A stretch of 64,000 nucleotides of DNA from an uncultured Chloroflexia bacterium (GCA_963785535.1 CAWAVQ010000007.1:183502-247501), one strand, 5' to 3'. Positions 26,369 to 42,390 are shown, counted from the first letter of the stretch. Program-made: numbers and translations. Notes: generated by a model not told the origin, from the letters alone.

Positions 26369-26502
26369 AAAAAAGGCGGACGATGATGTCCGCCTTTTTT
26401 GGCACCCGAAGGGGTCGGGGTTGAGGAGAACTTGTATAATATAGTTGTCATTCAAGATATAAGGTTGTTAATCGGCGCGCCGATTAACATGTGGTTGGGC
26501 GG
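26369..26502 (+). repeat. Repeat A, copy 1: terminator hairpin + TATAAT tract + 20-bp perfect palindrome + GTTGGGC core
   Basis: aaaaaggcggacgatgatgtccgcctttttt (26369-26400), ...cttgtataat..., TTAATCGGCGCGCCGATTAA (26468-26487), GTTGGGC (26494-26500). About 80-90% identical by eye to 33407-33539 and 34912-35039. Confidence 0.85.
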
Positions 26503-26545
26503 TTTACGATCAAGATGTAAAAAATACAGAAAAAGAAGGCGCATT

Positions 26546-27307
26546 ATGTTTCTTTTCCAAAGAAAACCAAAATGCCCAAATTGTGAAATGGAGTTAGAGA
26601 AAAATCCGACCCCGAAGCAAGAATGCCCACATTGTGGGAGAGTTATCCTTGTGCGAAGTGGGAAATTGGTTACAGAAGAACAAGCGAAAATCATGGATTG
26701 GTTAACACGGCTTGAATTCTTTGGCATCACTCGAAAAGAATTTGATAAACAAAGAGAAGAGCTAAGCAAACAATTCGGATCTCGCGCCAGCGTCAATGAC
26801 ACTATATGGCGAATATTAAATAATCTCATTGTGAAATTTGCAAGAAACGGTTCCCTTTTAGAGCAGATATATCGCGAAATGGCCAGTCTGATTTCGAGCG
26901 AAGGAAAAGACCCAACTGAATTTCTTATCAAAGCTGAGAAAATTAGGCGACAACAACAAGGAATTTTAACTACTCCAAAGAAGCAAGTATTCTTAGGTCA
27001 TGGCGAGCTAAGATATGTGAGACAACTTCATGACGAAGGGCAACTTGATAAGGCAGAAAGTTTACTTCTGAAAGCGGAACCATCGCCAGCCGTTTTAGAT
27101 GAATTGAGAAAAGTCGTCAGCACAAGAGCTAGAATAGCTAAAAAAGAAGGTGATTGGAAAGCCGTAATTCGCCATCTTGAAGGCTATACAACTTATGCAA
27201 ATAAATGGCGAAGCTATTGTATAAAGATGGCTAACCAAGAACCACCTAACCATACGGAGAGTGATATTCAGTTGTTAGAAAAAGCGAAAGAGAAATTGAC
27301 AACATAA
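26546..27307 (+). CDS. Hypothetical protein with N-terminal zinc ribbon (cassette 1)
   Basis: ATG 26546 (MFLFQRKPKCPNCEMELEKNPTPKQECPHCG...). The track ORF starts at 26399 inside repeat A, which is unlikely to be coding. Confidence 0.6.
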   Translation: MFLFQRKPKCPNCEMELEKNPTPKQECPHCGRVILVRSGKLVTEEQAKIMDWLTRLEFFGITRKEFDKQREELSKQFGSRASVNDTIWRILNNLIVKFARNGSLLEQIYREMASLISSEGKDPTEFLIKAEKIRRQQQGILTTPKKQVFLGHGELRYVRQLHDEGQLDKAESLLLKAEPSPAVLDELRKVVSTRARIAKKEGDWKAVIRHLEGYTTYANKWRSYCIKMANQEPPNHTESDIQLLEKAKEKLTT

Positions 27308-27326
27308 TGGTAAGAATTGTAAAACT

Positions 27327-27406
27327 ACTCAACCGGCGTGTATCCCGCTCTCGCATAATGCGCGGGGAAGGCTGGTGTGCCCCGCAGGGGTGTAACGCAA
27401 GCCGTT
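27327..27406 (+). repeat. attC-like site, IS-interrupted (its 3' core continues at 29129-29135)
   Basis: ACTCAAC-c-GGCG...GCC-GTT, then the IS, then GTTGGGC. Joined length 84 bp. The outer boxes are complementary in 6 of 7 positions. Confidence 0.6.
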
Positions 27407-29128
27407 GAGACTGTCGAAAAAGGGCGAAAATAGCAACAAAAATCCAGAGGGCACTGTATACTTATCTATACAGCGGAGGTACCTATGGCAAAGTTCAAAC
27501 CATACGATCCCGATCAAGTGATCCTGCTCCCCGTCTCTCTCCAGAACCAGATCGTTCCTGGCTCACTGGAACATACCATCAACGAATTGGTGGAAAATCA
27601 TATTGATCTCTCGCTGTTCGATCGTCGATACAAAAATGATGCCACCGGTGCCCATGCCATCAATCCCAAGATCCTGCTCAAGATCATTTTGTTCGCCTAT
27701 TCCAGAGGCTTGATCAGCTTCAGACAGATGGAACGCGCCTGCCGGGAAAACGCCACCTTCATGGCGCTTTGCTCTGGCTACTTCCCCGATCACAGCACCA
27801 TCGCCAGTTTTGTTTCTTCCATGCAAGACGAAATCGAGAGCGTTTTCTGCAACATTCTCCTTGTCTGTGATGAACTCGGCTTGCTAGGCGGTACCCATTT
27901 CAGCCTGGATGGCGTCAAACTATCCGCCAATGTTTCCAAAGAGTGGAGCGGCACCTTCGATGAACTCAAACACAAGCGTGATAAGTTGCAGCAAAAACTC
28001 GAGCGGGTGCTGGCAGAACATATTCAGACGGATCAGCAACCTGAGTTGGAATTCGAACATCAGAAGAAACGGGAAAGACGGCTCCAACTTCAAGTCGAAC
28101 GTCTGAACCAGTTCATCGAAAACGAGAAACCCAAGATCGGCAGCGAGGGCAAAGAGATCCAAAGCAATGTCGTTGACAACCAGTCCGTGAAAATGCCCAC
28201 CTCCCACGGCGTGCTCCAGGGCTACAACGCCCAGGCTCTGGTCGATTCCAAACACCAGGTCATCCTTGCCGCCGAGGCTTTCGCCTCCCAGGATCACGAG
28301 AACCTGGAGCCCATGATCAAAGGCGGAAAAAAAACGCCATCGCCATCGGAAAAAGTGAGGCCTTCTTCCAGGAAAAACAACTCACCGCCGATAGCAACTA
28401 TCATTCATTCGAGTCTCTCTCCTTCTGCAAAAACGAAAACATCGATGCTTATATCCCCGATATCCAGTTCCGCAAACGGGACCAACGCTTTGCTGATAGC
28501 ATGCCCTTTGGGTACCAGCAGCGCTTCAAAGACGGCATCCACTCATCCAAATCAAAGGCGGAGCCCTTCACTGCCGCTGATTTCTCCTTTGATCCTGTCA
28601 ACCAGGTTTACATTTGTCCCCAGGGCAAGCAGCTCACCTGCCATGCCCGCAACCAAACGAACCGCTATCGTACCTATGATATCTACCACGCTCGTCAGGA
28701 AGATTGCGCTGCCTGCCCCCTGAGAACACGCTGCCTGAGCAAAGTGGATTCTTCACGCAGGTATCTTTCCGTCCAGGTGGATAGCCAGCCACCCAACGTG
28801 ATCGACGAGATGAAGGCCAAGGTTGACTCTCATCAGGGCAAGAAGATCTATGCCCGGCGGTTGGGTGTCGTTGAACCAGTCTTTGCCAATATCTGCGTGC
28901 AAAAGCGCATGGATCGATTCACCCTGCGCTCTAAATTGAAAGTGGATATACAATGGAGGCTGTTCGCTCTGGTCCACAATATCGGCAAGATCCACTCTTT
29001 TGGAGCGATCCAGTAGCCCCAACAGGATCATAGCCCCCTACCCAGTCGCCTTCCAGACAGGAAACTGTGTTCCCGATCTTCGCCGGACCGGGAATTGCTC
29101 TTGGGAAAAACAGTTTTTCGACAGTCTC
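27407..29128 (+). mobile_element. IS1182-family insertion sequence (1722 bp)
   Basis: Perfect 15-bp terminal inverted repeats GAGACTGTCGAAAAA (27407-27421 and the complement of 29114-29128). Flanked by GTT/GTT (or CGTTG with 14-bp IRs). Confidence 0.8.
27485..29016 (+). CDS. IS1182-family transposase, split into two frames at an A8 run
   Basis: N-terminus MAKFKPYDPDQVILLPVSL...INPKILLKIILFAYSRGLISFRQMERAC is typical of IS1182. The frame changes at aaaaaaaa (28327-28334). The C-terminal part (CPQG...CAACPLRTRC, ...VEPVFANI) continues in the -1 frame to 29016. Confidence 0.75.
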
Positions 29129-29180
29129 GTTGGGCGGCAACTTACTCCCGAAAATGTTTTGTAAATAAGGTAAGATTTTG

Positions 29181-29954
29181 ATGGAAGATAATAGCCCATT
29201 TTCTACATTTGACTGGTATTTCACTGATATATCTCAGGAGGATGCTGCGCGCTATCATGCCTTAAAAGCAAGACCGCTGGAAACAGAAATCCTTCAAGAT
29301 TTGATAAAAGCAGACTCAATCGTCAGTTTTGCCCTTTGGAGTGAACTACCGAAAAATCACCCCGTTAGTGAATTATGGGCTGAAACACAGCCAGATCTCC
29401 AGGCATCCATTTATCTTGCTTATGGTGGCTTTTTTCGGCAAGCACTTACAATTTTACGCTCTTGGTTTGAAATTAACGTGCATGGGGTTTTCTTTTCAGC
29501 GTATTATGGTCAACCAACTGCACGCTATGAACAATGGCGAAAAGGGCAAAGAAATTCCCCGGCAAAGATGAAAGAATTATCTAAATCCTTAGCATCAAGA
29601 CAGGATAAATTAATGCCGGTAGACCAAGATACTATATTTCAGAAAATAAATCCAATCTATACATTTCTTTCACGCCAAACTCATGCGCAAGGGCTAGATA
29701 TTTATAATCTTCAAGAAGGTCGTGATAATGTACCGCGTTATTTACCCAAGAGTTATGATGTTTGGTATTCAAGCATGCTTTCTTCTTTTGATGCGATATG
29801 TTTCTTGTATAGGATTTTCTTTTCACAGCACCTAGCAAATTACTTGCAAGGTGACCCTGCTGAACAACAATATGCACGTGAACTCTCCAATAATCTTTCA
29901 AAAAGTCTTCCGGAATTTGGGAACCTGTTATCAGATGCTTTTCGCATTTTCTGA
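29181..29954 (+). CDS. Hypothetical protein (cassette 2)
   Basis: 257-aa ORF beginning 46 nt after the GTTGGGC core. I recognise no motifs. Confidence 0.6.
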   Translation: MEDNSPFSTFDWYFTDISQEDAARYHALKARPLETEILQDLIKADSIVSFALWSELPKNHPVSELWAETQPDLQASIYLAYGGFFRQALTILRSWFEINVHGVFFSAYYGQPTARYEQWRKGQRNSPAKMKELSKSLASRQDKLMPVDQDTIFQKINPIYTFLSRQTHAQGLDIYNLQEGRDNVPRYLPKSYDVWYSSMLSSFDAICFLYRIFFSQHLANYLQGDPAEQQYARELSNNLSKSLPEFGNLLSDAFRIF

Positions 29955-29969: not shown

Positions 29970-30202
29970 ACCCAACACAGCGCGCAAGCAAACCCCGCAT
30001 AATGCGCGAGATAGGCTGGTGGATTCGCACCGCTAAAATGGTTTTTTCGTGGTCCTGGGTTTTGTCCGTTTCATGGGCGAATCCACGGCCCTCCAGCCGC
30101 CGGCCTTCCCCGTATACGGGGTATCTCGGCAAAGTGCGCCGGGACGATGTCCTTTCCCCCTTTTGGGGGCCTTCGGCAGGATGTTATCGCGGGCCGTTAG
30201 CC
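29970..30202 (+). repeat. Long composite attC-like site
   Basis: ACCCAAC (29970) ... GTTAGCC (30196). The 5' half is homologous to 39503-39631 and the 3' half to 31110-31182. Contains a ggctggtggattcgc/gcgaatccac..ccagcc stem and GC mini-hairpins. Confidence 0.5.
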
Positions 30203-30250: not shown

Positions 30251-31075
30251 ATGTCGGAAAAAAATTCGGAAGATGAAAAAATTGTCAAAGTCCATGCATA
30301 TATAGCAGGGTTTCTACCAGATTTAATCATTGGATTTCAAAAAGACGGAATTTGGTATTTACCCGGTGGAATTGTTAATGGTATTCCTCGCAGTTTCCCG
30401 GATTCATCACAAGTCCATTTTTATACCCTTGCAAATTACCTTAAACAACAAACTGGGCTTATTCTTACAGGGTTAACTGATGCTCAACGATTAACTTTTA
30501 ATCACTTCCCTGGTGGTACTGAAGCAACAATTCTCTATTTTGGGGGTGTTTCTGGAGAAATGATTAATGGAGTAAAACTCGATATAAATAATTTGCCTGA
30601 TTTTGCTATTGAATGTGGTAACCCTAAGGGTACGATTGAAAAATTAATGCAACCCATTCTCAAAACTAAGTCGGCAAGTTCTCAGACAACAGAGTCTATT
30701 GAAGGTGTATTTGTGTCTGAGAAACCAACAGGCACTTCTCCAAATGGCAACAACTGTTATTATTTCTTACGCTTTTATTCGGATGGATTAGTTATACAAA
30801 CAGGAGTTTGCACACCGAACTTACAAGAAGGATGGCGTGATATTCGCATGTGGTTTCACCGTGATAGTCTGAAAGATATGGGGCGTGGTCAATATCATAT
30901 AGAAAATAACAAAATTAATTTCACAACAATTGTACATTTCAAACAGGTACATCATGAAGTGGTAATGGATTTTGCAGGTCGGTTCTCCAAAGATCGGTTG
31001 GAATTGAATTTACTAAGTCGCACAACAGGACAACAAGGTAGAATGTCCTTTATAAAGTTTGGAGATTCTGCATAA
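30251..31075 (+). CDS. Hypothetical protein (cassette 3)
   Basis: ATG 30251 (MSEKNSEDEK...). The 83 codons the track adds upstream run through the GC-rich repeat and are probably not coding. Confidence 0.6.
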   Translation: MSEKNSEDEKIVKVHAYIAGFLPDLIIGFQKDGIWYLPGGIVNGIPRSFPDSSQVHFYTLANYLKQQTGLILTGLTDAQRLTFNHFPGGTEATILYFGGVSGEMINGVKLDINNLPDFAIECGNPKGTIEKLMQPILKTKSASSQTTESIEGVFVSEKPTGTSPNGNNCYYFLRFYSDGLVIQTGVCTPNLQEGWRDIRMWFHRDSLKDMGRGQYHIENNKINFTTIVHFKQVHHEVVMDFAGRFSKDRLELNLLSRTTGQQGRMSFIKFGDSA

Positions 31076-31182
31076 CAAAAGTGGGCTACCGCTTGTACGC
31101 GGACCTCGCAAAGAGCGCCGGGACGAGGGCCCATACCCCCTTTCGGGGGCCTTCGGCGGGATGCTATCGCGGGTCTTTAGGC
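31070..31182 (+). repeat. attC-like site (degenerate 3' core)
   Basis: GCATAAC overlaps the TAA stop. The site ends cgcgggtcTTTAGGC. Contains the gggacg...ccccctttcggggg...cttcggcgggatg mini-hairpin unit. Confidence 0.45.
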
Positions 31183-31301: not shown

Positions 31302-31835
31302 ATGAAATTTAATACTTTTTATCAGGAACTTCAAAATAGCACAGAGATGATCCGTGCTTTATTGGCAGGAGTCACACCACAGGCAGCACGTCTCAAACCA
31401 AGTGCCGAGTCGTGGTCGATTCTCGAAGTGGTGTGTCACTTATACGATGAAGAGCGCGAAGATTTTCGAGAACATCTCGATTTCATCCTTTCGACTTCGC
31501 TCAAGGCAGGCCTTCACCGCCAACATGAAGAATGGCATGCGATTGACCCCGAAGGTTGGGTAACTGAACGAAAATATAACGAGCAGAACTTCGCTGAGAT
31601 GCAGGAAAAATTCTTTGTCGAACGTGAAAAATCATTCGCCTGGCTCAATGGATTACAGAATCCAGATTGGGAGAAAACTTATACAACCGAGTACCGCACC
31701 ATCAGCGCGGGAGAGATGTTCGCCTGTTGGGTCGCGCATGACAATCTCCACATCCGCCAATTGGTGGAACTCAGGCGCATGAGGCTAGAAAATATCACAA
31801 AGCCTTATAATCTCGAATACGCAGGTGATTGGTAA
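31302..31835 (+). CDS. DinB-superfamily protein (cassette 4)
   Basis: ATG 31302 after aaagagg. WSILEVVCHLYDEE...AHDNLHIRQ His pattern of DinB_2-type four-helix bundles. Confidence 0.65.
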   Translation: MKFNTFYQELQNSTEMIRALLAGVTPQAARLKPSAESWSILEVVCHLYDEEREDFREHLDFILSTSLKAGLHRQHEEWHAIDPEGWVTERKYNEQNFAEMQEKFFVEREKSFAWLNGLQNPDWEKTYTTEYRTISAGEMFACWVAHDNLHIRQLVELRRMRLENITKPYNLEYAGDW

Positions 31836-32122
31836 CGGAATAGACACAAATCATATTTTCAAGCCTTTTCCTAGACTATAGCAGATTACCGTTTCCAAGC
31901 TTTTTTCTCCCTCGCTGCCACGAACGCGTGCCGTTATGCAACAGGATGCAAACATGCCACAAGCTACACACAAGTCGAAGAGCTTTGCGGTGTCCGTGAT
32001 GGACAAAACGAGACGCCGCGAGCTTGCTAAGCATGCCCTTTCAGGCTACGTGAGCGGCCCTGATGCGACAACTCAGGCGCTGGCTCAGGCCCTGACGAGG
32101 GTCGGGGGACTCGCGTGCAATC

Positions 32123-32614
32123 GTGCTGGTCGAAGGGATCAGCGATCAGATCGCGCTCGAGACGCTCGCCGTGCGCCGCGGTCGGGATCTCGATTCCGAG
32201 GGAGTCCTCATTCTGCCGATTGGTGGCGCCCAGGCAATCGCACACTATCTATTGCAACTTGGTCCCAGGGGAGCGGACGTGAAACTTGCTGGTCTCTGCG
32301 ATGCCGCCGAGCAGGGCATCTTTCGGCGGGGTCTTGAAAAGGCTGGCTTAGGCTCGCCCCAAACACGCGCCGACATGGAGCGCCTTGGTTTTTTTGTCTG
32401 TGTTGATGATTTAGAAAGTGAGCTGATTCGTGCCGTTGGCCCTGCACAAGTTGAGGCAATCTTCGACTCTCAAGGCGACCTCGAATCGTTCCGTACCCTT
32501 CAGAGGCAGCCTGCCTGGCATACGCGGAAGGTAGAGGCTCAGATGCGACGCTTCCTGGGCAGTGGTGCCCGCCGAAAGCTGCGCTACGCGCGTTTACTTG
32601 TCGAACTCGGTTGA
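32123..32614 (+). CDS. Stand-alone TOPRIM (OLD-nuclease-type) domain protein, apparently 5'-frameshifted
   Basis: (A)IVLVEGISDQIALETLA...VLILPIGGAQ...FVCVDDLESELI is a TOPRIM signature. The in-frame region upstream has no start. A plausible N-terminus (MDKTRRRELAK... from 31999) lies in another frame, with the switch near the G5 run at 32104-32108. Confidence 0.55.
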   Translation: MLVEGISDQIALETLAVRRGRDLDSEGVLILPIGGAQAIAHYLLQLGPRGADVKLAGLCDAAEQGIFRRGLEKAGLGSPQTRADMERLGFFVCVDDLESELIRAVGPAQVEAIFDSQGDLESFRTLQRQPAWHTRKVEAQMRRFLGSGARRKLRYARLLVELG

Positions 32615-32809
32615 TCTTGATCGCGTCCCTCATCCGCTCGATGCCGTATTGACATATGTCTGACCTTCGACAGCGTTAACTCGGTCAAGATTTTAGTAAC
32701 GCCGCTAAGACACTTACTTTTGATTCAAATGGCCCAGACGGCAGCCTAACGAAACGCTGCAAGGGAGGCCAAATCGTTCTGCTGCAAACGCAAAACGGAA
32801 GGAAGAGCA

Positions 32810-33376
32810 ATGAATACCTACGTGATACTTATGCGCGGCATCAATGTCGGTGGAAAAAATAAAATACCGATGTCGGATTTGAAAAAATGCCTGGAAGGCC
32901 TGGGGTTTTCAAATGTTTCGACATATATTGCCAGCGGTAACGTAATCTTAAAATCCGACAAAAGCGCCGAAGAGGTAAAAGCTCAGATTGAAGGGGCTTT
33001 GCCTGAGAGCTTCGAACTTGATAGTGGACTTATCAAAGTTTTAGTATTAACTCGGGATCAATTCCAAGCCATCATTGAGGACAAGCCCAAAGGCTTCGGG
33101 GAGCAGCCCGAGAAATACCACAGCGATGCCATCTTTCTGATGGGTATTGATGCGGCCCAGGTTATGCCTGTATTCGATCCTCGGGAAGGGGTCGACAAAG
33201 TCTGGCCGGGTGAGGGTGTGATCTACTCACAACGTCTCAGCTCACAACGCACTAAAAGCCGTCTTAGTAAAATCATGGGAACACCGGCCTACAAATCCAT
33301 GACCATCCGCAGTTGGAACACAACCACAAAGTTGCTAAAGATGCTGGAGGAGATGGACGCCCATCAAGGAATATAA
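32810..33376 (+). CDS. DUF1697-family protein
   Basis: MNTYVILMRGINVGGKNKIPMSDLKKCLEGLGFSNVSTYIASGNVIL is the hallmark N-terminus of DUF1697. Confidence 0.8.
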   Translation: MNTYVILMRGINVGGKNKIPMSDLKKCLEGLGFSNVSTYIASGNVILKSDKSAEEVKAQIEGALPESFELDSGLIKVLVLTRDQFQAIIEDKPKGFGEQPEKYHSDAIFLMGIDAAQVMPVFDPREGVDKVWPGEGVIYSQRLSSQRTKSRLSKIMGTPAYKSMTIRSWNTTTKLLKMLEEMDAHQGI

Positions 33377-35039: not shown

Positions 35040-35898
35040 GAAACTGTTTAAAAAGTTAGCGTGGAGCCAGTCGCCGAAGCAGAAGTCGCGTCATAGCGAT
35101 GTAGATCATGGCTTCACTCGATTCGGTCAAGACTTCATAATCTTTGCTCAAGCGGCGATTAGCATCAAACCAGGCAAAAGTGCGCTCAACAACCCAGCGC
35201 CTGGGCAAGACCTGGAACCCTTTTTGTCCTGCTGGTGGCAGCACAGGCTCAATACGGAAACGGAAGCGAGCTTGCACCCAGTTCAACAATTCGCCACGAT
35301 AGGTGCCATCAGCCCAGATCTTGCGTAAATTCTTGCAGAAGCCGCCTAAACCGCTCAGGAGTTGTCTGGCGCCGGCTGGATCTGACACAGAAGCGGCCGT
35401 TACAAGGACACCGAGTACCAATCCAAGGGTATCAACCAAGAGATGACGCTTTCTTCCATTCACATGTTTTCCAGCATCGTATCCGCGTACTCCAGGAACC
35501 AGGGTGCCTTCAACACTTTGACTGTCGATACATCCAGCCGTTGGATGTTTGTGCCGTTCCGCCTTCTCCCGTACGCGTGCTCGCAAGGTATCATGAATAC
35601 GTTTCCAAAGGCCAGTCTTGCGCCATTCTCGAAAATAGAAGTAGACACTTTGCCATTTTGGATATTCTTTGGGCATCATGCGCCATTGGATACCACCAAC
35701 CACCAAATACAAAATCGCATTGACTACCTGGCGCATGTCAAGCGTTCGTGGTCGTCCACCCGGTTTTGGCGCTGGAAGCATTTCTTTGATAAGATTCCAT
35801 TGACTGTCGGTCAAATCTGTGGGGTATAGTTGTTTGGTCTGCATAACCGCCAACTATCCCACCTGATTGCCCGACAGTCAAACCTTTTAAACAGTCTC
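35040..35898 (-). mobile_element. IS5-family insertion sequence (859 bp)
   Basis: Terminal IRs GAAACTGTTTAAAA / GAGACTGTTTAAAA. 3-bp direct repeat TTA (35037-35039 and 35899-35901). Confidence 0.8.
35056..35853 (-). CDS. IS5-family DDE transposase
   Basis: 265 aa. N-terminus LTDSQWNLIKEMLPAPKPGGRPR (DUF4096-type) and a DDE domain (...VDTLGL...IWADGTYRG...VERTFAW). Confidence 0.85.
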   Translation of the reverse strand: MAVMQTKQLYPTDLTDSQWNLIKEMLPAPKPGGRPRTLDMRQVVNAILYLVVGGIQWRMMPKEYPKWQSVYFYFREWRKTGLWKRIHDTLRARVREKAERHKHPTAGCIDSQSVEGTLVPGVRGYDAGKHVNGRKRHLLVDTLGLVLGVLVTAASVSDPAGARQLLSGLGGFCKNLRKIWADGTYRGELLNWVQARFRFRIEPVLPPAGQKGFQVLPRRWVVERTFAWFDANRRLSKDYEVLTESSEAMIYIAMTRLLLRRLAPR

Positions 35899-35902
35899 TT
35901 AG

Positions 35903-37472
35903 TATTACAGCGCAAGGTTCGGAGCGAGAGTAGCCAGTTGAGCCACTTTCGCCTTGCGATGAGAACGATAAGCGACAAAATTGCGTTTCTGGTAATACCG
36001 CACTCGCTCCAAAGCGGCCTGAATATCAAAGACAGGCGCTGGCAGGACAGCGGCCAGCAACAGACGGACTTGATAAATCGTGAGAGCAGGCGACTGTTCC
36101 TGAAAACGAATTCTTAAACGAACCAGGAAGTGATGAGCGAGAGAGACCAGGAGCATATGATGATGCCATCCCAACCAACTGCGCATTTCGTAATGATCCA
36201 TTCCAACTTCGCCTTTGGCTTCTTCAAAGATGGTTTCGATCGGCCAACGCATGCCGCTAATGCGGACGAACTCGCTCAAAGGCATATCGGCGGGAGCATT
36301 GCTGAAGTAGTATTTGATCACCGACGGGTCATCCAGATTGCGGCGGATGATCAGCCACACTTCGCCGGCGGGCAGGTTGCCGCGCGACTCGGTCACGCGT
36401 AGGAAAGCGAATTCACAAGCAACGGGGCCTTTACTGCCTTCTTTGATAATGGCTTGAACCCAGTCATGTTTGGGAATATTCCTCACCAGTTTCTTAACCT
36501 GAACCGGGTGTTGGTTCGAATAGCGCAAACGTAAGCGGGTGGGACGACGACCACGCCCCTTCCATTTGGGCACATACACTTTGGGTTGGGTGCGCCAGAT
36601 CGGGGTCGTACTCTTGATCTCGGTGAAATACCACTTTCCCAAGTCGGCCACTCCATCCCGAAAAGCGGGCAAATCCCCGTACAATTCGTCCGCCGCCACC
36701 CAGGAAAAGGGCAAAGTACCTCGTTTTTTGGCTTTTTGCAGCAATTCCAGCCCGATTTCCGGCTTAGTCTTGTATTCCAAGCCTTCTGGAACGCCGCACG
36801 CCTTGCGTCGCTCGGCATGCTCTGCTTCTCCTGTGCCTGCGGCACTGGCGCAGGCAAACCACTCATCGGGCATGAACAATTGGCCCTCGACCAAACTGTA
36901 GCCTTTGCGGCTGGCATACCCCAAGTACACGCCCACCTGCCCGTTTGCCACCTTGCCCACCGATCCGCAATATTGCCGCGCCACGCCCACCGAACTATCG
37001 CCCTGCTTCACTGCGCTCGATTCGTCAATCAGCGCCACCCCATCCTCTTCGCCCAGCATTTCACCCATCAGTTGTTGATGAATGCCGATCACAGGCTCCG
37101 CTTCCCACGGGCTTTGCCCCACAAAGTATTGCTGACTTCGCACCTTCTCTCCCAAACCCAGCGCCATCTGTTCGACATTCTTGCGCGTGGCATTGCCCAG
37201 CAAGCCGTGTACATAGACTTTGCTTCGTTTCAATTGTTCCACTCGCTGAAAGGCAGGTTCAAACCGTTCCATGTATTTCGTCATTTCGTCCAAAAATCGC
37301 TCAACATCTTCCTGACTCAAATTGCATTCGGGCGCAGGACAAGTCTGGGTTACAATTTCCGCAGGCATGGTGTTCTTTGTCTCCTTCCCACTTGGCCGTG
37401 GTTGGAGAAAGATACCATGCCTTCCTATTCCAGACTACTCAACCTGCCTGCTCGCAACTTTGCGCTGTAATA
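35903..37472 (-). mobile_element. IS701-family insertion sequence (1570 bp)
   Basis: Terminal IRs TATTACAGCGCAAgGTT / TATTACAGCGCAAaGTT. Flanked by TTAG (35899-35902 and 37473-37476). Confidence 0.75.
35905..37368 (-). CDS. IS701-family DDE transposase
   Basis: 487 aa. [35 protein letters not shown]...[10 protein letters not shown] is an IS701-type N-terminus. C-terminus [25 protein letters not shown]. Confidence 0.8.
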
Positions 37473-37523: not shown

Positions 37524-38144
37524 ATGCCTAAAATCCCACCTCAACTCACACAAGCTGTTTTTTACATTTATCCTTCTGAAGATGATGCAATAAATAATGC
37601 AGAGTTTGGCGCAACTGGTTTTTTCTTTGGCGTAAATTCCGAATCTTTAGATGGAATGTATTATTATGCTGTAACAAATTCTCATGTAATTTTTCAAGAT
37701 GGAATGGAAAATCCAACAATTAGAGTAAACACAACTGAAAATAAGTTTGATGTTATAAAAACATCACAAAATAATTGGGTAAGACACTTTGCGGGTGATG
37801 ATATTGCTATCTGTCCAATCCAAATAGAATCTGACAAAATTGCTGGCGGTTGTTTTACAAGGGAATTCATTGCCAATGAAGATTTTCTAAAAAAACATGC
37901 TGTTGGAGCTGGGGATGATGTTTTCATGATCGGAAGGTTTAGAGTTCACGCTGGGCGTTCAAGAAATTTACCGGTGGTAAGATTTGGAAACATTGCAGCA
38001 ATGAACGATGAAGGTCTTTATAATGATGCCACTAAGCTCTATCAAGAAAGTTATTTAGTTGAAATGCGGTCAATTGCTGGATTTAGTGGTTCTCCTGTAT
38101 TTATATACTCACCTTACGCGAATTTGAGTACACTAGGTACATGA
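37524..38144 (+). pseudogene. Trypsin-like (S1/Trypsin_2) serine protease, 3' end cut off by an IS at 38108
   Basis: Catalytic triad contexts VTNSHV, GDDIAI and GFSGSPVF. The ORF runs into the IS inverted repeat and stops at 38144. Confidence 0.7.
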
Positions 38145-39220
38145 AAAACGGCAAACTTCTCGACCTGTACAGTGATTACTTGATCAGTGCTTTCGGACAA
38201 ACAACAGCTACGGGGTTATCGTCCCTGTTGAATGGAGAAATCAGCCATGATCAAGTGCAACGCTCGTTGGCGGGTGAGCAACAAACATCGGCGGATTTGT
38301 GGCGGATTGCCAAGCCACACGTTCGCAAGATTGAGAGTGAAGACGGTGTCGCTATCGTAGATGACAGTATTGCCGAGAAGCCATACACCGATGAGAATGA
38401 CATCATTTGCTGGCACTATGATCACGCTCAACAACGAACTGTCAAGGGCATCAACTTTGTCACCTGCTTATATCATAGTCAGGGCGTATCGCTGCCCGTT
38501 GGCTTTGAACTGGTCCGGAAAACGCAACACTACATTGATCCGAAGAATGGGAAAGAAAAACGTCGTTCTGACAAAACCAAGAACGAAATGTACCGAGATT
38601 TACTGCAACAGACGGTGAAAAACCAAATTCCTTTCAAATATGCACTCAACGATATCTGGTTTGCCTCTGCCGAAAACATGAACTTCGTCAAAATCACACT
38701 CAAAAAGGAGTTCGTTATGCCACTCAAAGGCAATCGCAAAGTGGCACTGAGTGTGGATGCCAAACAGCAGGGACGTTACCAACGAGTGGACACGCTTCCG
38801 CTAGAGCCGATGCAACCTGTTACAGCGTATCTGGAAGGTGTTGTATTTGCACTCCTTCTGGTCAAGCAAGTCTTCACAAACGAAGATGGTTCGACAGGCA
38901 TTCAGTATCTGGTCACCAGCGATACCACCTTGGACGGTAACGGGATTACCACAATCTATCAAAAACGATGGAACGTGGAACCTTATCACAAATCACTCAA
39001 ACAAAATGCTTCGTTGGAAAAATCACCTACCCAAACGGTGATTACTCAAACCAATCATTTCTTTGCAGCTTTGTGTGGCTATATCAAACTCGAACTGCTA
39101 AAAGGCGATACCCAACTCAATCACTTTGCTCTCAAATCAAAACTCTATTTACGTGCTATCCAATCAGCTTATGCTACTTTACAGGAATTCAACCCTGCGC
39201 GTTTGACTGCGTAAGGTGAG
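38108..39220 (+). mobile_element. IS4/IS701-superfamily insertion sequence (1113 bp)
   Basis: Perfect 12-bp IRs CTCACCTTACGC (38108-38119 and the complement of 39209-39220). Flanked by TTATATA on both sides (38101-38107 and 39221-39227). Confidence 0.75.
38141..39214 (+). CDS. DDE transposase (IS4 superfamily, Y-2-R-3-E-6-K motif)
   Basis: 357 aa. IYQKRWNVEPYHKSLKQ matches the YREK signature. DDSIAEK and LNDIWFAS look like D-residue contexts. Confidence 0.75.
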   Translation: MKNGKLLDLYSDYLISAFGQTTATGLSSLLNGEISHDQVQRSLAGEQQTSADLWRIAKPHVRKIESEDGVAIVDDSIAEKPYTDENDIICWHYDHAQQRTVKGINFVTCLYHSQGVSLPVGFELVRKTQHYIDPKNGKEKRRSDKTKNEMYRDLLQQTVKNQIPFKYALNDIWFASAENMNFVKITLKKEFVMPLKGNRKVALSVDAKQQGRYQRVDTLPLEPMQPVTAYLEGVVFALLLVKQVFTNEDGSTGIQYLVTSDTTLDGNGITTIYQKRWNVEPYHKSLKQNASLEKSPTQTVITQTNHFFAALCGYIKLELLKGDTQLNHFALKSKLYLRAIQSAYATLQEFNPARLTA

Positions 39221-39508
39221 TTATATATATTCACCCTCTATTTTCAGCCAGAATTCAATGACGTACCAAGTGTAAGCATGGGGACTCTTGGCAAATTAGA
39301 AATTGAAATTCAACTAAAGCTTTTAGGGATTCAATGGGGGCAAATTTTCTACAAAACTAGAGCAGAAGATGAACACGGTCAAAAATACAAAATGAATGTA
39401 GATAGTGCGATGGAAGGTGTTGTCCCTATCCAAAAATTAATGGATTTGATTGACAGCGATGAAATGATTGAAATGAGAAGAAAATCTGACGAAATGAACG
39501 AAACCTAA
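39221..39508 (+). pseudogene. Probable 3' remnant of the IS-disrupted protease gene
   Basis: The frame is open from 39221. KLLGIQWGQIF resembles the (V/L)xG(I/V)xxxG strand that follows the GxSGSP serine in trypsin-fold proteases. The junction frame depends on the true target-duplication length within a TA repeat. Confidence 0.4.
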
Positions 39509-39631
39509 CAAAGTGTGCACGCGGACGACTGGATTCTCACCGTCAAAATGGCTTTTTCGTGGACTTGGGTTTTGCCCGTTTCGTGGGTAAGTCCACGTCC
39601 CTCCGACCGCCGGAAACGCGGGCCGTTTGGC
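39503..39631 (+). repeat. attC-like site (129 bp)
   Basis: ACCTAAC overlaps the TAA stop. The site ends cgcgggccGTTTGGC. Imperfect long stem gcggacgactggattctcac / gtgggtaagtccacgtccctccgaccgc. Confidence 0.55.
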
Positions 39632-39668: not shown

Positions 39669-40334
39669 ATGATAGATTTACGACACGTTGAATGGAACAA
39701 ACCCGGAACGCCATGCGTTAACATTGTGGAATCACCGTCCTCACAGGATTTACTTTTGGAATGTCAGGAGGGGCGTGCATTGCAGGCCGCACTTTACCAG
39801 GCGCGTATTCCCTGCCGCTATTATCTTGCAACAAACAAAAACACGTTCACGAGTGCCCTTCAATTTATTGCCCAGCAGCGACAATTGGTACCGCAGACCA
39901 TTGCACTTCACGTCTCGTGTCATGGAAACGAAGACGGAATAGCGCTGACTGACGAAGATTTCGTTGCGTGGGACGAATTGCGAAAGATTCTTCTTGGATT
40001 TGCACGCGAGGCGATGGCTTACCATGAGGTAGGTAAAATCTCATCAATTCTTTTATGCATGTCCTCATGTTCAGGGCTATCTGCACAAAAAATGGTTGAA
40101 AGCGAGGAACGCCCTTTCATGTCCCTTGTTGCGCCCATTCGGGAGGTGCTTTGGTCAGATTGCCTTACTTCATTTTTAGTGTTTTACAATCTTTTCCTCA
40201 TTAAAAATGCTGCCCTCGGCGAGGCGGTGAGCGCTATGAATGTATCAGCAGGAATCGAAGACTTGTTTCAAACAGTGGACTTAAGCGATCATCTTAAATA
40301 CGTGGTGAGTACTGGAGATACAGACAATATATGA
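39669..40334 (+). CDS. Caspase/CHAT-like His-Cys dyad protein (tentative)
   Basis: IALHVSCHGNEDGIAL ... ILLCMSSCSGL resembles the H(G) and C catalytic strands of peptidase C14/CHAT folds. 221 aa, no other motifs. Confidence 0.4.
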   Translation: MIDLRHVEWNKPGTPCVNIVESPSSQDLLLECQEGRALQAALYQARIPCRYYLATNKNTFTSALQFIAQQRQLVPQTIALHVSCHGNEDGIALTDEDFVAWDELRKILLGFAREAMAYHEVGKISSILLCMSSCSGLSAQKMVESEERPFMSLVAPIREVLWSDCLTSFLVFYNLFLIKNAALGEAVSAMNVSAGIEDLFQTVDLSDHLKYVVSTGDTDNI

Positions 40335-40407
40335 GCCGAACCGCCACTTCGAGAGGGAACTTTGCTCCACTGCCTCTCCGCAAAAGCCCCTCAAGCAGGC
40401 GTTGGGC
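40335..40407 (+). repeat. attC-like site (73 bp, best-formed)
   Basis: GCCGAAC-c-GCC...GGC-GTTGGGC. Outer boxes pair 6 of 7. Inner stems CTT/AAG and GAGG/CCTC with bulges. Starts 1 nt after the stop and ends 39 nt before the next ATG/GTG. Confidence 0.65.
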
Positions 40408-40445: not shown

Positions 40446-41234
40446 GTGGAATTGTTGGCATACACAACTACAAAAATATCTTGGAAACTCCTCAGTTCTG
40501 CGCTATCGCGCGCGCGGGCTTCTTCAGGGGACATCGAACGAATTGACTTAAATTTAGAAGCTCTCTCAAGCATTGTATTATCTTGTGTAGCTCTTGAAGC
40601 TTTTGTAAACGAACTATCTTCCTTGTCAAATGCTTTTCTATTCAATTTTGAACAGGAGGATGAAACTCGGTATCTGGAAATCGACAAGCAAGAAAGTATC
40701 ATTGGTGTGGATTGGCGCAAGTGCGAAGAAGTGGCGAAAATCAAAGATAGTAAAAAAGATTCATTTTATGAGAGATACAAACTATTGCTTAAGGTGTTGG
40801 ATATTGAACAGCCACCTTTTCTTCAAAAAATTTGGTACTTGAAAGAATTAAGAAATGGACTTGTGCATTTCAAATTGGTTGACAAACCAATTGTTGATGA
40901 TGAAGATGGAGTAGTAAGGTTTGCGCAAACTCCTCCAGAAGTGTTTAACCATTTGAAAAATTATTCAGTAATAGGTCAGCCGATTATCGCTCCTGAAGGA
41001 AACGATGGCAGTGTTGAATGGACACTTAGAATGTGCACTAGTGCAATGGCAGCTTGGTCCATAGATTTGATATTGGACGCTATGATTTATGTCATCAATT
41101 CAATTCCAAATGGGACTCTCAAAGACTTCATCGTCAAGGCTTACGCAGCTAGGGACAAATCGTTTGTTCATATACTTCGAAAGGGAAAGTCTGATGTCGA
41201 GTTATGGATAACTGATTTATATAGTAAGTCATAA
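40446..41234 (+). CDS. HEPN-like protein (R-x4-H motif; tentative)
   Basis: All-helical 262-aa protein with LKELRNGLVHFKL, i.e. the Rx4-6H HEPN signature in its usual helix context. Confidence 0.4.
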   Translation: MELLAYTTTKISWKLLSSALSRARASSGDIERIDLNLEALSSIVLSCVALEAFVNELSSLSNAFLFNFEQEDETRYLEIDKQESIIGVDWRKCEEVAKIKDSKKDSFYERYKLLLKVLDIEQPPFLQKIWYLKELRNGLVHFKLVDKPIVDDEDGVVRFAQTPPEVFNHLKNYSVIGQPIIAPEGNDGSVEWTLRMCTSAMAAWSIDLILDAMIYVINSIPNGTLKDFIVKAYAARDKSFVHILRKGKSDVELWITDLYSKS

Positions 41235-41248: not shown

Positions 41249-41479
41249 GCCCAACACGGCGTGCGCGCGGACTCCGCAAAGAGCGCGGGACATTTCCCAT
41301 GCGGGGACGATGTCCTTTCCCCCCTTTCGGGGGCCTTCGGCAGGATGCTCCGCGATCCCCTAGGGGGACGATGTCCCTTCCCCTCTTTAGGGGGGCCTTA
41401 TCCCATGCGGGGCACAGGTCGGCAGGGGCGCTATCCCACTCCGCTACGCTTCGGGGGCAATGCCTCGAGCCCGTTGGCT
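41249..41479 (+). repeat. Long attC-like site with two copies of the GC mini-hairpin unit
   Basis: GCCCAAC-ac-GGCG...GAGCC-c-GTTGGCT. Internal ggggacgatgtcctttcccccctttcgggggccttcggcaggatg and a second degenerate copy. Confidence 0.5.
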
Positions 41480-41520
41480 GGCGCTTGGTACAATAGGAGG
41501 CGTAATTAAGGGCAATTTCC

Positions 41521-41856
41521 ATGATTCCAGATGTTCAGCTAAGTAAACGCGAAAAGGAGGTGCTCAAACTTGTTTTGCAAGGTAGGAGCAACAAGCAGAT
41601 TGCCTGGTCTCTTGGTATAGCTGTTCGCACAGTTGAATTTCATTTGAAAAATATTTATACCAAATTTCAAGTGAACTCCAGAATAGAGCTGTTTTTGAAA
41701 CTGGGGCAGGCCCCAGGTGCATCGCGAAAATCGAAGAACTGGGGTATTCCACAGTTGATAAAGGGTGGAAAAAAACCGAAAATGGAGACAGGTTCAATCC
41801 GCTCATGGATTGGACCAGATTTAAAGGGGCTGTCTCTGTTATCGGTAAGGAGTTGA
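41521..41856 (+). CDS. Small LuxR-type HTH protein
   Basis: LSKREKEVLKLVLQGRSNKQIAWSLGIAVRTVEFHLKNIYTKF. The tail after the HTH crosses an A8 run (41768-41775) and may be frameshifted. Confidence 0.6.
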   Translation: MIPDVQLSKREKEVLKLVLQGRSNKQIAWSLGIAVRTVEFHLKNIYTKFQVNSRIELFLKLGQAPGASRKSKNWGIPQLIKGGKKPKMETGSIRSWIGPDLKGLSLLSVRS

Positions 41857-41858
41857 TT

Positions 41859-42146
41859 ATGAAAGCTCTATTGAAGAACCCCAGTGCTTTTCTTCCACTT
41901 GTGATGTCGTTTGGCGCCCTGGCTACAGTACTTATTTATGTCGCCCTCTTCGGGCCCGCCCCCCAGGCCGATGAGGGAGCCGCGGCCCATATCTGGCAGA
42001 TACTCATGGCTGCACAAATACCGATCATTGTGTTCTTCGCCATCAAGTGGCTGCCACGCACACCAAAACAGGCACTGCTCGTGTTGGCGCTGCAAGGCGG
42101 TGCCGCGCTCATGGCACTTGCGCCCGTTTACCTTCTCAAATTCTAG
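41859..42146 (+). CDS. Small 3-TM membrane protein
   Basis: ATG 41859 is 6 nt after AAGGAG. Sequence MKALLKNPSAFLPLVMSFGALATVLIYVALF... Confidence 0.55.
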   Translation: MKALLKNPSAFLPLVMSFGALATVLIYVALFGPAPQADEGAAAHIWQILMAAQIPIIVFFAIKWLPRTPKQALLVLALQGGAALMALAPVYLLKF

Positions 42147-42184
42147 CAGATCACAGGTTGCCTTCTACACATAGACGCGAAGCG

Positions 42185-42251
42185 CTCTAACAATGGCATT
42201 GGCGGATAAACCGGAGCGTTGTCCGTTCATGCCGAAATATCAAAGTTAGAC
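42185..42251 (+). repeat. Short attC-like site, followed by a truncated one (AGCCAAC at 42266)
   Basis: CTCTAAC ... GTTAGAC pairs in 6 of 7 positions. Inner GGCAT/ATGCC stem. The next site starts at 42266 but has no recognisable 3' core before the minus-strand pseudogene. Confidence 0.4.
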
Positions 42252-42390
42252 GTTTGTATAAAGCCAGCCAACATAGTGTGCGCGTGGAGCAGACGGGCTG
42301 GATTACCCGACGCCCACGCACCCCCCTATACGGGGACAGTCGCGATGGGAAAAGGTACCATTCCGGTTTCTAACCAAGGCGTAAACTCGC

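What the first reader, a model, noticed from the sequence alone, without database searches (positions are those of the whole stretch)
26369..42272. Integron-type gene-cassette array with no integrase in the window
About 13 short, functionally unrelated ORFs between 26.4 and 42.3 kb all point the same way. Nearly every one is followed by a GC-rich imperfect palindrome. Each palindrome starts with an RYYYAAC-type box at or overlapping the stop codon and ends with a GTTRRRY-type box 20-50 nt before the next start. The sites are: ACTCAAC(27327)...GTT|GGGC (84 bp once the IS is removed); ACCCAAC(29970)...GTTAGCC(30196); GCATAAC(31070)...TTTAGGC(31176); GCCGAAC(34020)...GTTGGCG(34262); ACCTAAC(39503)...GTTTGGC(39625); GCCGAAC(40335)...GTTGGGC(40401, 73 bp); GCCCAAC(41249)...GTTGGCT(41473); CTCTAAC(42185)...GTTAGAC(42245, 67 bp). 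In the short sites the outer boxes are complementary, with a bulged base next to an inner GGC/GCC box (CTCAAC-c-GGCG vs GCC-GTTGAG; GCCGAAC-c-GCC vs GGC-GTTGGGC). That is the R''-L''/L'-R' layout of integron attC sites. The cassette ORFs look AT-richer than the flanking housekeeping genes (by eye, not computed). No tyrosine recombinase ORF exists anywhere in the 64 kb. This would therefore be a CALIN-type array or the distal part of a sedentary chromosomal integron, in a lineage whose gene content looks Chloroflexota-like.
Basis: partly seen in the sequence, partly recalled or inferred. Interest (0 to 1): 0.85.

Follow-up and report, generated by a model that had tools for sequence, protein, structure and literature searches.

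The report
Integron cassette array without integrase
This stretch of an Anaerolineales (Chloroflexota) chromosome is a genuine integron-type gene-cassette array with no integrase nearby, which is a known kind of element (a CALIN); its gene content differs between close relatives exactly at the classic G|TT recombination points.

Summary
Between 26.4 and 42.4 kb, same-strand, AT-richer, functionally unrelated ORFs are each followed by a GC-rich site that starts with RYYYAAC and ends with GTTRRRY. The array in fact continues to about 54.2 kb. Three independent tests support integron attC sites.

1. The RYYYAAC box of each cassette is complementary to the TTRRRY left at that cassette's own 5' boundary (31/40 positions, permutation p about 1e-4). 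This is the signature of crossover at G|TT.
2. Relatives with the same flanking genes carry different cassettes, and the differences begin at G|TT.
3. A covariance model built only from class 1 integron attC sites gives one significant hit in the window, site F, with exact boundaries.

No IntI-like ORF lies in the 64 kb. Both flanks are conserved core genes, so this is a bounded CALIN and not the far end of a chromosomal integron. Four IS elements interrupt it.

Two less ordinary features stand out. Many attC sites are very long (230-317 nt) and built from shared hairpin modules. A conserved non-attC landing site with a promoter-like box occurs three times, and each copy is followed by different cassettes. 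Overall this is a new member of a known kind.

The parts
23539..26254 (+). Left core flank: a 670-aa Fe-S/CCG oxidoreductase (23539-25551) and a DsbA-like thioredoxin (25601-26254).
   Evidence: The same genes in the same order precede the array in relatives L054, L055 and L056 and in the 66-kb JGI contig.
26370..26500 (+). D2a, the first landing site. It consists of a terminator hairpin (about 26376-26398), an invariant GTATAAT box, a 24-bp perfect palindrome TGTTAATCGGCGCGCCGATTAACA, and the crossover G|TT at 26494.
   Evidence: Seven copies were aligned from the window and from L053-L055, and identity ends at G|TT. The element does not fold as an attC. The hairpin part is also present after the core genes in array-poor relatives.
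26546..27307 (+). Cassette 1 ORF (253 aa, zinc-ribbon-like).
27327..29135 (+). attC A (27327-27406 plus 29129-29135), split at its GTT by an IS1182-family element (27407-29128). The IS has 15-bp inverted repeats GAGACTGTCGAAAAA and a frameshifted transposase.
   Evidence: Sequence; Pfam DUF772 and DDE_Tnp_1_6; inverted-repeat positions.
29181..29954 (+). Cassette 2 ORF (257 aa).
29970..30202 (+). attC B, 233 nt and modular (ACCCAAC...GTTAGCC).
30251..31075 (+). Cassette 3 ORF (274 aa).
31070..31182 (+). attC C (GCATAAC...TTTAGGC). Its R' box is degenerate.
31302..32614 (+). Cassette 4, carrying a DinB_2 ORF (31302-31835) and an OLD-type TOPRIM ORF that looks frameshifted (31936-32614).
   Evidence: Pfam; overlapping ORFs.
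32744..32782 (+). attC J, short (GCCTAAC...GTTCTGC). Its R'' box matches the TTAGGC at the start of cassette 4 at 4 of 4 variable positions.
   Evidence: The homologous longer site lies upstream of DUF1697 in L057.
32810..33376 (+). DUF1697 gene. In relatives it sits directly after the DsbA-like gene.
   Evidence: Pfam; contexts.
33407..33537 (+). D2b, the second copy of the landing site, with G|TT at 33531.
33556..33987 (+). Cassette ORF (143 aa, lipoprotein-like).
   Evidence: The same cassette is present in L054 and L055.
34020..34267 (+). attC D, 248 nt (GCCGAAC...GTTGGCG). Its R'' box matches the TTCGGC after D2b at 4 of 4 variable positions.
34314..34781 (+). SnoaL-like cassette ORF.
34776..35040 (+). 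K junction (TCCTAACGAAAC, identical to the left end of J), fused to a copy of the last 95 nt of DUF1697, followed by D2c (34912-35040, GTTAG at 35036).
   Evidence: Repeat D1; sequence. The same junction occurs in L054 and L055.
35041..37472 (-). Two IS elements inserted in the same TTAG of the D2c R' box: an IS5-family element (about 35041-35898) and a DDE_5/IS701-like element (about 35903-37472).
   Evidence: Pfam; inverted repeats and TTAG duplications read.
37524..39508 (+). Trypsin-like peptidase cassette ORF, split by a DDE_5-type IS (about 38109-39219).
   Evidence: Pfam; inverted repeat CACCTTACGC.
39503..39631 (+). attC E (ACCTAAC...GTTTGGC). Its R'' box matches the reconstructed GTTAGGT after D2c at 4 of 4 variable positions.
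39669..40334 (+). Cassette ORF (221 aa, no Pfam hit).
40335..40407 (+). attC F, 73 nt and of canonical shape. Bulged C and A on the top strand correspond to G and T on the bottom strand.
   Evidence: This is the only significant hit of the class 1 attC model in the window (20.3 bits, E 0.005). Fold.
40446..41234 (+). Cassette ORF (262 aa). It is rare, with only 36 homologues in 5.8 billion proteins.
   Evidence: A 61%-identical homologue in an unrelated context (L074) is also followed by a GCCCAAC...CCGTT site.
41249..41479 (+). attC G, 231 nt and modular (GCCCAAC...GTTGGCT). Its R'' box matches the TTGGGC after F at 4 of 4 variable positions.
41521..42146 (+). Two-gene cassette: a GerE/LuxR regulator (41521-41856) and a 95-aa membrane ORF (41859-42146).
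42185..42251 (+). Hairpin H (CTCTAAC...GTTAGAC). It lies inside the cassette and is not a boundary.
   Evidence: Fold. It fails the boundary rule and has no covariance-model hit.
42266..42372 (+). attC I (AGCCAAC...GTTTCTA). Its R'' box matches the TTGGCT after G at 4 of 4 variable positions.
42391..45388 (-). Fragmented SARP-type regulator (Trans_reg_C, BTAD, TPR) on the opposite strand, GC 0.58-0.61, lying inside the array region.
45546..51614 (+). Block of about ten small same-strand ORFs (cytochrome c, ABM, SnoaL, SRPBCC, SDR, DUF2652 and others). Spacers are short and carry no recognisable attC.
51640..54200 (+). The distal cassettes. They comprise an attC-like site at 51640 to about 51737, a 144-aa ORF at 51809-52243, an attC at 52333-52405 (GCCTAAC...GTTGGGC), a DUF5939/cyclase ORF at 52457-54055, and the start of an attC at 54117 (GCCCAAC) that matches the TTGGGC at 52400.
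54514..61770 (.). Right core flank: a radical-SAM gene (54514-55992, + strand) and a 1877-aa aminotransferase-domain gene (56137-61770, - strand).
   Evidence: The same genes bound the array in L054 and L055. In array-poor relatives the large gene lies within about 120 nt to 1 kb of DUF1697.

Best explanation
The region from about 26.37 to about 54.2 kb is a chromosomal array of integron gene cassettes with no integrase next to it, that is, a CALIN. It lies between conserved core genes of an Anaerolineales genome. Each cassette is a promoterless ORF (sometimes two) followed by an attC site.

The inferred mechanism is as follows. An integron integrase encoded elsewhere in the genome, or supplied transiently by an incoming element, folds the bottom strand of attC and exchanges strands between the G and the TT of the GTTRRRY box. 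Cassettes are thereby excised as circles and re-inserted.

What is shown: the R''/R' boxes, the cassette-specific pairing of boxes across boundaries, the polymorphism at G|TT among relatives, and the absence of an integrase in the window. What is inferred: the identity and location of the integrase, single-strand folding in vivo, and expression.

New cassettes have repeatedly entered at a conserved site that is not an attC (D2). D2 lies just downstream of the core genes' terminator and carries an invariant TATAAT box pointing into the cassettes, so it behaves like an attI/Pc platform or an attG hot spot. Four IS insertions, a deletion (the K junction) and duplications of D2 have since scrambled the array.
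For: 1. Anatomy. There are ten or more sites with RYYYAAC at or near the stop codon and GTTRRRY 20-50 nt before the next start. All are on the + strand and GC-rich (0.62), and they lie between AT-richer ORFs (0.437 against 0.532 for core genes).

2. Boundary rule. The R'' box of each cassette is complementary to the TTRRRY at that cassette's own 5' end. This holds at 31/40 variable positions, and 5 of 10 cassettes match perfectly. It holds at only 16/36 positions for the R' box that follows the site in the array. The permutation p is about 1.4e-4. The rule also holds for three further cassettes in L054, one in L053 and one at 52.4-54.1 kb. It holds in six of seven known class 1 cassette junctions used as a positive control.

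3. Polymorphism. Relatives share the flanks but not the cassettes. L054 and L055 carry different cassettes after D2. L056 has one extra gene. A 66-kb relative has none, and there DUF1697 lies 120 nt from the convergent 1872-aa gene. L053 has D2 followed by yet another cassette.

4. Independent model. A covariance model built from nine class 1 attC sites recovers attC sites it was not trained on. In the window it gives one significant hit, site F, with exact ends. Its best hit in the relatives is the attC at L054 14661-14787, again with exact ends.

5. Mobility of a cassette. The 262-aa cassette protein is rare, and a homologue in an unrelated context is again followed by a GCCCAAC...CCGTT site.

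6. Confinement. The repeat motifs are confined to the array and to one strand.
Against: - Only site F reaches significance with the home-made class 1 model. That model is narrow (9 sequences, rough E-values).
- Most sites are 107-317 nt with branched centres, beyond the 20-100 nt variable region reported for known attC sites (PMC4889954). Their L boxes and extrahelical bases could not be established.
- Three cassettes fit the boundary rule poorly (c1, c3, c7).
- Sites J and I were recognised by me during the analysis, not defined blind.
- No integrase has been seen in this lineage, because the rest of the genome could not be reached.
- The block at 45.5-51.6 kb has no attC sites.
Confidence: 0.9

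Rival explanations
1. The array is the far end of a sedentary chromosomal integron whose intI and attI lie beyond the window.
For: No integrase lies in the window. Large chromosomal integrons can exceed 64 kb (general knowledge of Vibrio superintegrons).
Against: The left end of the array abuts core genes that are syntenic in four relatives. The right end abuts the radical-SAM and 1877-aa genes. In array-poor relatives the two flanks are nearly adjacent. There are 26 kb of housekeeping genes upstream, and no attC motifs occur outside 26-54 kb.
Confidence: 0.04
2. The palindromes are generic extragenic repeats (REP/BIME-like elements or terminators) between genes of a conserved locus, and are unrelated to integrons.
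For: The sites are GC-rich hairpin-forming repeats in intergenic spacers. Hairpin modules are shared and repeated in tandem inside the sites. There is no Rfam match.
Against: REP elements do not predict the cassette-specific R''/R' complementarity across boundaries. They do not predict gene-content polymorphism beginning at G|TT, the uniform orientation, the confinement to the array, or the class 1 attC model hit. An inner-module pattern was absent from 185,579 representative genomes apart from chance single matches.
Confidence: 0.03
3. This concerns the D2 site only. D2-distal is the relic of a true integron platform (attI plus Pc) whose neighbouring intI was deleted, and not a chromosomal attG-type secondary site that became a hot spot.
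For: D2-distal is found only where long arrays follow. It is absent from the array-poor relatives L056, L057 and L058, which keep only the terminator part. It carries an invariant TATAAT box pointing into the cassettes and several direct GGTTR boxes, and identity ends at G|TT. Five different cassettes follow its seven copies. It has no R'' partner and does not fold as an attC, as expected for a site used in double-stranded form.
Against: No intI or intI pseudogene is adjacent in any copy. D2-distal begins a few bases after the terminator in all copies. The exact 21-mer core was found only once in JGI metagenomes, again after DUF1697. Three copies in one array are not expected of an attI. Promoter activity is untested, and the simple scan did not call a promoter there.
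Confidence: 0.3

Closest known systems
[quoted passage not shown] 2016, PMC4889954; IntegronFinder 2, PMC9024848)
   Same: It has at least two attC sites in one orientation, each following a promoterless unrelated ORF. No intI lies within 4-10 kb. The cassettes are of unknown or accessory function and none is an antibiotic-resistance gene. IS elements are present.
   Different: With 13 or more sites it is larger than the average CALIN (about 5-6 sites). Many sites are 230-317 nt long, which by my recollection exceeds IntegronFinder's default size limit (not checked here). The array starts at a conserved non-attC site with a promoter-like box, and that site is repeated inside the array.
Sedentary chromosomal integrons (for example the Vibrio cholerae superintegron and Xanthomonas integrons)
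   Same: It occupies a fixed chromosomal locus. Its attC sites form a lineage-specific family that resemble one another. Cassette content varies between close relatives. The cassette ORFs are AT-richer than the core genes.
   Different: No intI is adjacent. The array is bounded by core genes on both sides.
Cassette insertion at attG genomic sites, and SALINs (preprint 10.1101/2022.09.11.507474)
   Same: Cassettes sit in a chromosome outside an integron platform, inserted at a G|TT, downstream of a resident promoter-like sequence. A deletion (the K junction) joins two GTT sites on the bottom strand, consistent with off-site integrase activity.
   Different: This is one site reused many times and duplicated, not scattered single insertions. 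No experimental evidence exists for this lineage.
attI/Pc platform of class 1 integrons
   Same: D2 is the position where the newest and most variable cassettes sit. The crossover is at G|TT. A TATAAT box about 55 nt upstream points into the array. The site is not a hairpin attC.
   Different: D2 has no sequence similarity to attI1 and no integrase gene beside it. It is present in three copies. It lies immediately after a core-gene terminator.

Membership tests
Integron attC site | An R'' box RYYYAAC and an R' box GTTRRRY at the two ends, with the conserved AAC/GTT triplets. | tested here: met
   Sites A, B, D, E, F, G, I and J have both boxes. Site C has TTTAGGC.
Integron attC site | Cassette boundary at G|TT, so that a cassette's R'' box pairs with the TTRRRY at its own 5' end. 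| tested here: met
   31/40 variable positions match and 5/10 cassettes match perfectly, with permutation p about 1.4e-4. Further perfect cases occur in L053, in L054 and at 52.4-54.1 kb. The same rule is seen in known class 1 arrays.
Integron attC site | An imperfect hairpin with an R stem, an unpaired spacer, an L stem and extrahelical bases (G and T on the bottom strand). | tested here: inconclusive
   This is met for F, where bulged C and A on the top strand give G and T on the bottom strand. It is roughly met for L053 site 53a and L054 site x1. The long sites fold into branched structures with an R stem and a short L-like stem, but the extrahelical bases could not be assigned.
Integron attC site | A significant hit to an attC covariance model. 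| tested here: inconclusive
   IntegronFinder's own model was not available. A substitute model built from nine class 1 sites hits F at E 0.005 and L054 14661-14787 at E 0.057. The other sites score below threshold, as expected given their long centres.
Integron attC site | Recombined by an integron integrase. | not testable with these tools
   This needs an excision or integration assay with a cognate IntI.
Complete integron | An intI gene adjacent to the array. | tested here: not met
   No IntI1 homologue is present in the six-frame ORFs of the window or of L053-L058. Core genes flank the array.
Complete integron | An attI site and a Pc promoter at the head of the array. | tested here: inconclusive
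   D2-distal behaves like one: the cassettes after it vary, the crossover is at G|TT, and the TATAAT box is invariant. It has no integrase beside it and no tested activity, and the scan tool calls no promoter there.
CALIN | At least two attC sites clustered with no integron integrase nearby (4 kb clustering threshold in PMC4889954; 10 kb also tried there). | tested here: met
   At least 13 sites lie in 28 kb. The nearest window edges are 26 kb and 10 kb away, with no integrase in between.
REP/BIME-type extragenic repeats | Many copies dispersed around the genome, in both orientations, and unrelated to gene-content variation. | tested here: not met
   Within 64 kb plus about 66 kb of relatives, the motifs occur only in the array and only on one strand. 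A genome-wide test was not possible.

The most novel reading that the evidence does not exclude
This Anaerolineales lineage may maintain an integron-like platform without an integrase. The platform would be a conserved landing site of about 100 nt (D2-distal) placed after a core-gene terminator. It has an invariant TATAAT box, direct GGTTR boxes, a 24-bp palindrome whose substitutions keep G.T pairing on the sense strand, and a crossover G|TT. The site is not an attC. It has been reused for at least five different cassettes, has been copied three times within one array, and would be served in trans by an integrase encoded elsewhere. The attC sites of the same lineage have grown to 230-317 nt by accreting shared hairpin modules. 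By my recollection of the default size limit, standard integron finders would miss most of the array.
Probability: 0.3. Interest if true: 0.6.

Novelty: new member of a known kind. Interest (0 to 1): 0.45.

Why it matters
The finding adds a well-documented, large CALIN from Anaerolineales (Chloroflexota), a group abundant in sediments and wastewater but barely represented in integron studies. Population-level evidence shows that cassettes are gained and lost at a fixed chromosomal site with no local integrase. This bears on how CALINs arise: by loss of intI, or by trans-acting insertion at genomic sites. The very long modular attC sites suggest that surveys using default size limits may under-count cassettes in such lineages. 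The conserved D2 site gives a concrete candidate for an attI-like or attG-like hot spot that could be tested experimentally.

Tried and rejected
- **Rfam.** A gathering-threshold scan of the whole window and an E-value scan of 26-43 kb gave no family.
- **Representative genomes.** A scan of 185,579 genomes for an inner attC module returned 52 single matches, all chance hits in GC-rich genomes.
- **Source contig.** Exact-protein look-ups of window proteins and of the 100%-identical P0001 found nothing. I could not walk beyond the window or search the rest of the genome for intI.
- **IntegronFinder training data.** The supplementary attC set and model of Cury et al. are not held. I built a substitute model from class 1 arrays instead.
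- **D2 as an unusual attC.** Rejected: it has no R'' partner and no attC-like fold on either strand.
- **An attC embedded in the last 95 coding nt of DUF1697.** In L057 the stop codon lies in CCGTTAAGG. Not supported: the R'' candidate does not obey the boundary rule, and DUF1697 sits in ordinary contexts elsewhere.
- **H as a cassette boundary.** Rejected in favour of I.
- **Contexts of homologues.** I looked at contexts of DUF1697 homologues and cassette-protein homologues in the hope of finding a neighbouring intI, and found none.
- **Literature on Anaerolineae integrons.** Nothing specific turned up.

Full report
**What is in the sequence**

From 26.4 to 42.4 kb the + strand carries a run of short ORFs with unrelated or unknown functions. 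They include a zinc-ribbon protein, DinB_2, OLD-type TOPRIM, DUF1697, a 143-aa lipoprotein-like ORF, SnoaL, a trypsin-like peptidase, a GerE/LuxR regulator and several ORFs with no Pfam hit. Almost every ORF is followed by a GC-rich stretch that begins with RYYYAAC at or near the stop codon and ends with GTTRRRY shortly before the next start.

- An IS1182-family element lies in the GTT of site A.
- An IS5-family element and a DDE_5/IS701-like element lie in the same TTAG.
- A further DDE_5 element lies inside the peptidase ORF.

Cassette ORFs pool to GC 0.437, core genes to 0.532 (Mann-Whitney p=0.003) and the sites to 0.62.

**Is it more than chance, and are these attC sites?**

I used three independent tests.

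The first is a prediction specific to integrons. Strand exchange occurs between the G and the TT of GTTRRRY. The TTRRRY at a cassette's 5' end therefore belongs to that cassette, and it should be complementary to the RYYYAAC of the cassette's own attC rather than to that of the preceding site.
- In the window this holds at 31 of 40 variable positions, with five of ten cassettes perfect.
- The R' box that physically follows each site matches at only 16 of 36 positions.
- 200,000 permutations give p of about 1.4e-4.
- Known class 1 arrays fetched as a control show the same rule in six of seven junctions.
- A caveat applies: I recognised two of the sites used (J and I) from their sequence during the analysis, not blind.

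The second test is comparative. The DUF1697 protein led to contigs from related populations that share the window's upstream genes: cytochrome c, CcmABC, a 543-aa protein, the 670-aa Fe-S/CCG oxidoreductase and the DsbA-like gene.
- L054 and L055 carry arrays at the same place, with partly the same and partly different cassettes.
- In L054 three further cassettes obey the boundary rule perfectly.
- L056 has a single extra gene.
- In a 66-kb relative, DUF1697 lies 120 nt from the convergent 1872-aa gene that also bounds the window's array.
- A JGI contig (L053) has the same DUF1697 end and landing site followed by yet another cassette, whose attC begins GCCCAAC and so matches the TTGGGC at its start.

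The block is therefore not conserved syntenic core. Its content changes between relatives, and the changes begin at G|TT.

The third test is a covariance model. IntegronFinder's model and training set were not available. I confirmed my recalled IntI1 sequence against plasmids at 100% identity. I then fetched class 1 arrays, extracted known attC sites, aligned nine of them and built a model with the R and L stems.
- The model recovers attC sites it was not trained on: dfrA12 at 42.9 bits, gcuF-type sites at 45-47 bits and arr-3 at 18 bits.
- With filters off, the only significant hit in the 64-kb window is site F (40335-40407, + strand, 20.3 bits, E 0.005).
- In the relatives the best hit is the site at L054 14661-14787, again with the ends I had drawn by hand (16.7 bits, E 0.057).
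- F also has the canonical bulged bases: C and A on the top strand, which are G and T on the bottom strand.
- The other sites do not score. This is expected for a narrow model and for sites of 107-317 nt, whose branched centres far exceed the 20-100 nt reported for known sites (PMC4889954).

Two further checks agree. The family-specific motifs occur only within the array and only on the + strand, in the window and in the relatives. An inner module is absent from representative genomes apart from chance matches.

**No integrase, and the limits of the array**

phmmer with IntI1 against every six-frame ORF of the window and of loci L053-L058 gives nothing better than E 0.12.

- After site I (42266-42372) comes a fragmented SARP-type regulator on the other strand (42391-45388).
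- Next comes a block of small + strand ORFs without recognisable sites (45.5-51.6 kb).
- Three more sites follow, at 51640, at 52333-52405 and at 54117. The last obeys the boundary rule.
- The right flank is the radical-SAM gene with its upstream region and the 1877-aa gene. It is the same in L054 and L055.

Because both flanks are core genes, the element is a bounded CALIN and not the distal piece of a chromosomal integron.

**The landing site D2**

The array does not begin with an attC. It begins with an element of about 130 nt that occurs three times in the window (26370-26500, 33407-33537, 34912-35040), twice intact in L054, once intact and once truncated in L055, and once in L053.

Its first part is a hairpin terminator. 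This part is also present after the core genes in array-poor relatives, together with a short decayed copy of the 3' end of the CCG gene.

Its second part, D2-distal, is found only where long arrays follow. It contains:
- an invariant GTATAAT box;
- an invariant TCAAGATATAAGGTTGTTAAT;
- a 24-bp palindrome;
- GATTAACA, five bases, and then GTT.

Sequence identity among copies stops at that G|TT, and five different cassettes follow the seven intact copies. D2 has no R'' partner and does not fold like an attC on either strand. It therefore fails membership as an attC, but it clearly works as an insertion point. This is the behaviour of an attI or of an attG hot spot (preprint 10.1101/2022.09.11.507474).

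The substitutions in the palindrome are nearly all of the kind that keep G.T pairing on the sense strand. This hints at an RNA-level hairpin in a transcript starting at the TATAAT box. The copies are not independent, however, and the simple promoter scan does not call a promoter there.

The second and third copies are preceded by the DUF1697 3' end. The third copy is joined to the SnoaL cassette through a junction (K). K is the left end of a J-type attC fused to DUF1697 at two GTT triplets on the bottom strand. This is consistent with an integrase-mediated or microhomology-mediated deletion, and the same junction is present in L054 and L055.

**Mechanism, and what is shown versus inferred**

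Shown:
- cassette units delimited at G|TT;
- cassette-specific box complementarity;
- gain and loss among relatives;
- a shared family of sites;
- one site recognised by a class 1 model;
- no local integrase.

Inferred:
- an integron integrase, encoded elsewhere or supplied in trans, folds the bottom strand and recombines the sites;
- D2 supplies transcription for proximal cassettes;
- IS elements and duplications have since degraded the array.

**Comparison with what is known**

CALINs are common and well described, and integrons have been reported in Chloroflexi (PMC4889954, PMC2426708). The element meets the CALIN definition and fails the definition of a complete integron. It resembles sedentary chromosomal integrons in having a lineage-specific attC family and strain-level variation. 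It resembles attG/SALIN insertions in lying outside an integron platform.

The unusual points are the size and modular build of many attC sites and the reused, duplicated, promoter-bearing landing site.

**Verdict**

This is a new member of a known kind, of moderate interest. The D2 site and the oversized attC family are the parts worth following up.

Noticed in passing
window 29970-30202, 31070-31182, 39503-39631, 41249-41479; L054 15633-15949 and 16569-16662; L055 18126-18296: The long attC sites are assembled from shared hairpin modules. Examples are GGGACGATGTCC...GGGGGCCTTCGGCAGGATG, GGATTCGCACC...GAATCCACG, AAAAATGATGGCCCGCCATCAT and GGGTGCACGCGGAC. The modules occur in different combinations and, in site G, in tandem. 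Site lengths reach 317 nt.
   Followed up: partly
window 27404-27409, 29126-29131 and 35036-35040, 35899-35902, 37473-37476: Three IS insertions sit exactly in R' boxes. An IS1182-family element is at the GTT of attC A. An IS5-family and an IS701-like element both lie in the TTAG of GTTAGGT after D2c, each with a TTAG duplication.
   Followed up: partly
window 26255-26350; L056 11260-11395; L057 1056-1095: Decayed duplicate copies of the 3' end of the Fe-S/CCG oxidoreductase gene lie downstream of the inserted genes and just before the shared terminator hairpin. The window copy encodes ...ENGEFNVVVEELM*. This suggests that the DsbA-like or CPBP gene and DUF1697 were themselves inserted into the end of that gene in an ancestor.
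   Followed up: partly
L057 400-471 and 1040-1060: In an array-poor relative, DUF1697 is preceded by a family-type attC (GCCTAACACAGTGTGCACGCGGAC...) after a CPBP/Rce1-like gene. Its stop codon lies inside CCGTTAAGG, an R'-like box. This points to a possible old cassette origin for DUF1697.
   Followed up: partly
window 26463-26486, 33500-33523, 35005-35028 and copies in L053-L055: This is the 24-bp palindrome TGTTAATCGGCGCGCCGATTAACA. Across seven copies its substitutions are almost all C-to-T on the + strand, giving G.T pairs, with one A.C at the apex. The meaning is unclear: an RNA hairpin, an operator, or mutation bias.
   Followed up: partly
window 42391-45388 (- strand): A GC-rich (0.58-0.61) SARP-type regulator (Trans_reg_C, BTAD, TPR) is broken into at least five overlapping ORFs. 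It sits on the opposite strand in the middle of the cassette region and is probably a pseudogene.
   Followed up: partly
window 45546-51614: About ten small + strand ORFs (dihaem cytochrome c, ABM, SnoaL, SRPBCC, two or three membrane proteins, SDR, DUF2652) are separated by spacers of 29-110 nt without attC sites. A 617-nt gap at 48199-48815 appears to hold a disrupted SnoaL-like ORF. The block could be an operon-sized cassette or a set of cassettes whose sites have decayed.
   Followed up: no
L074 10787-11016 (GCA_030834785.1 contig JAUQXE010000337.1): A 61%-identical homologue of the 262-aa cassette protein lies in an unrelated genome context, between SMC and SurA/ribosomal genes. It is again followed by a GCCCAAC...GGATTCTGCAC...GTGCAGAATC...CCGTTCTTA site, which suggests a small CALIN or SALIN there.
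   Followed up: partly
window 31936-32614: The OLD-type TOPRIM ORF is split into two overlapping frames (31936-32337 and 32123-32614). It has GC 0.59, much higher than its neighbouring cassette ORFs, and is probably a frameshifted cassette gene of foreign origin.
   Followed up: no
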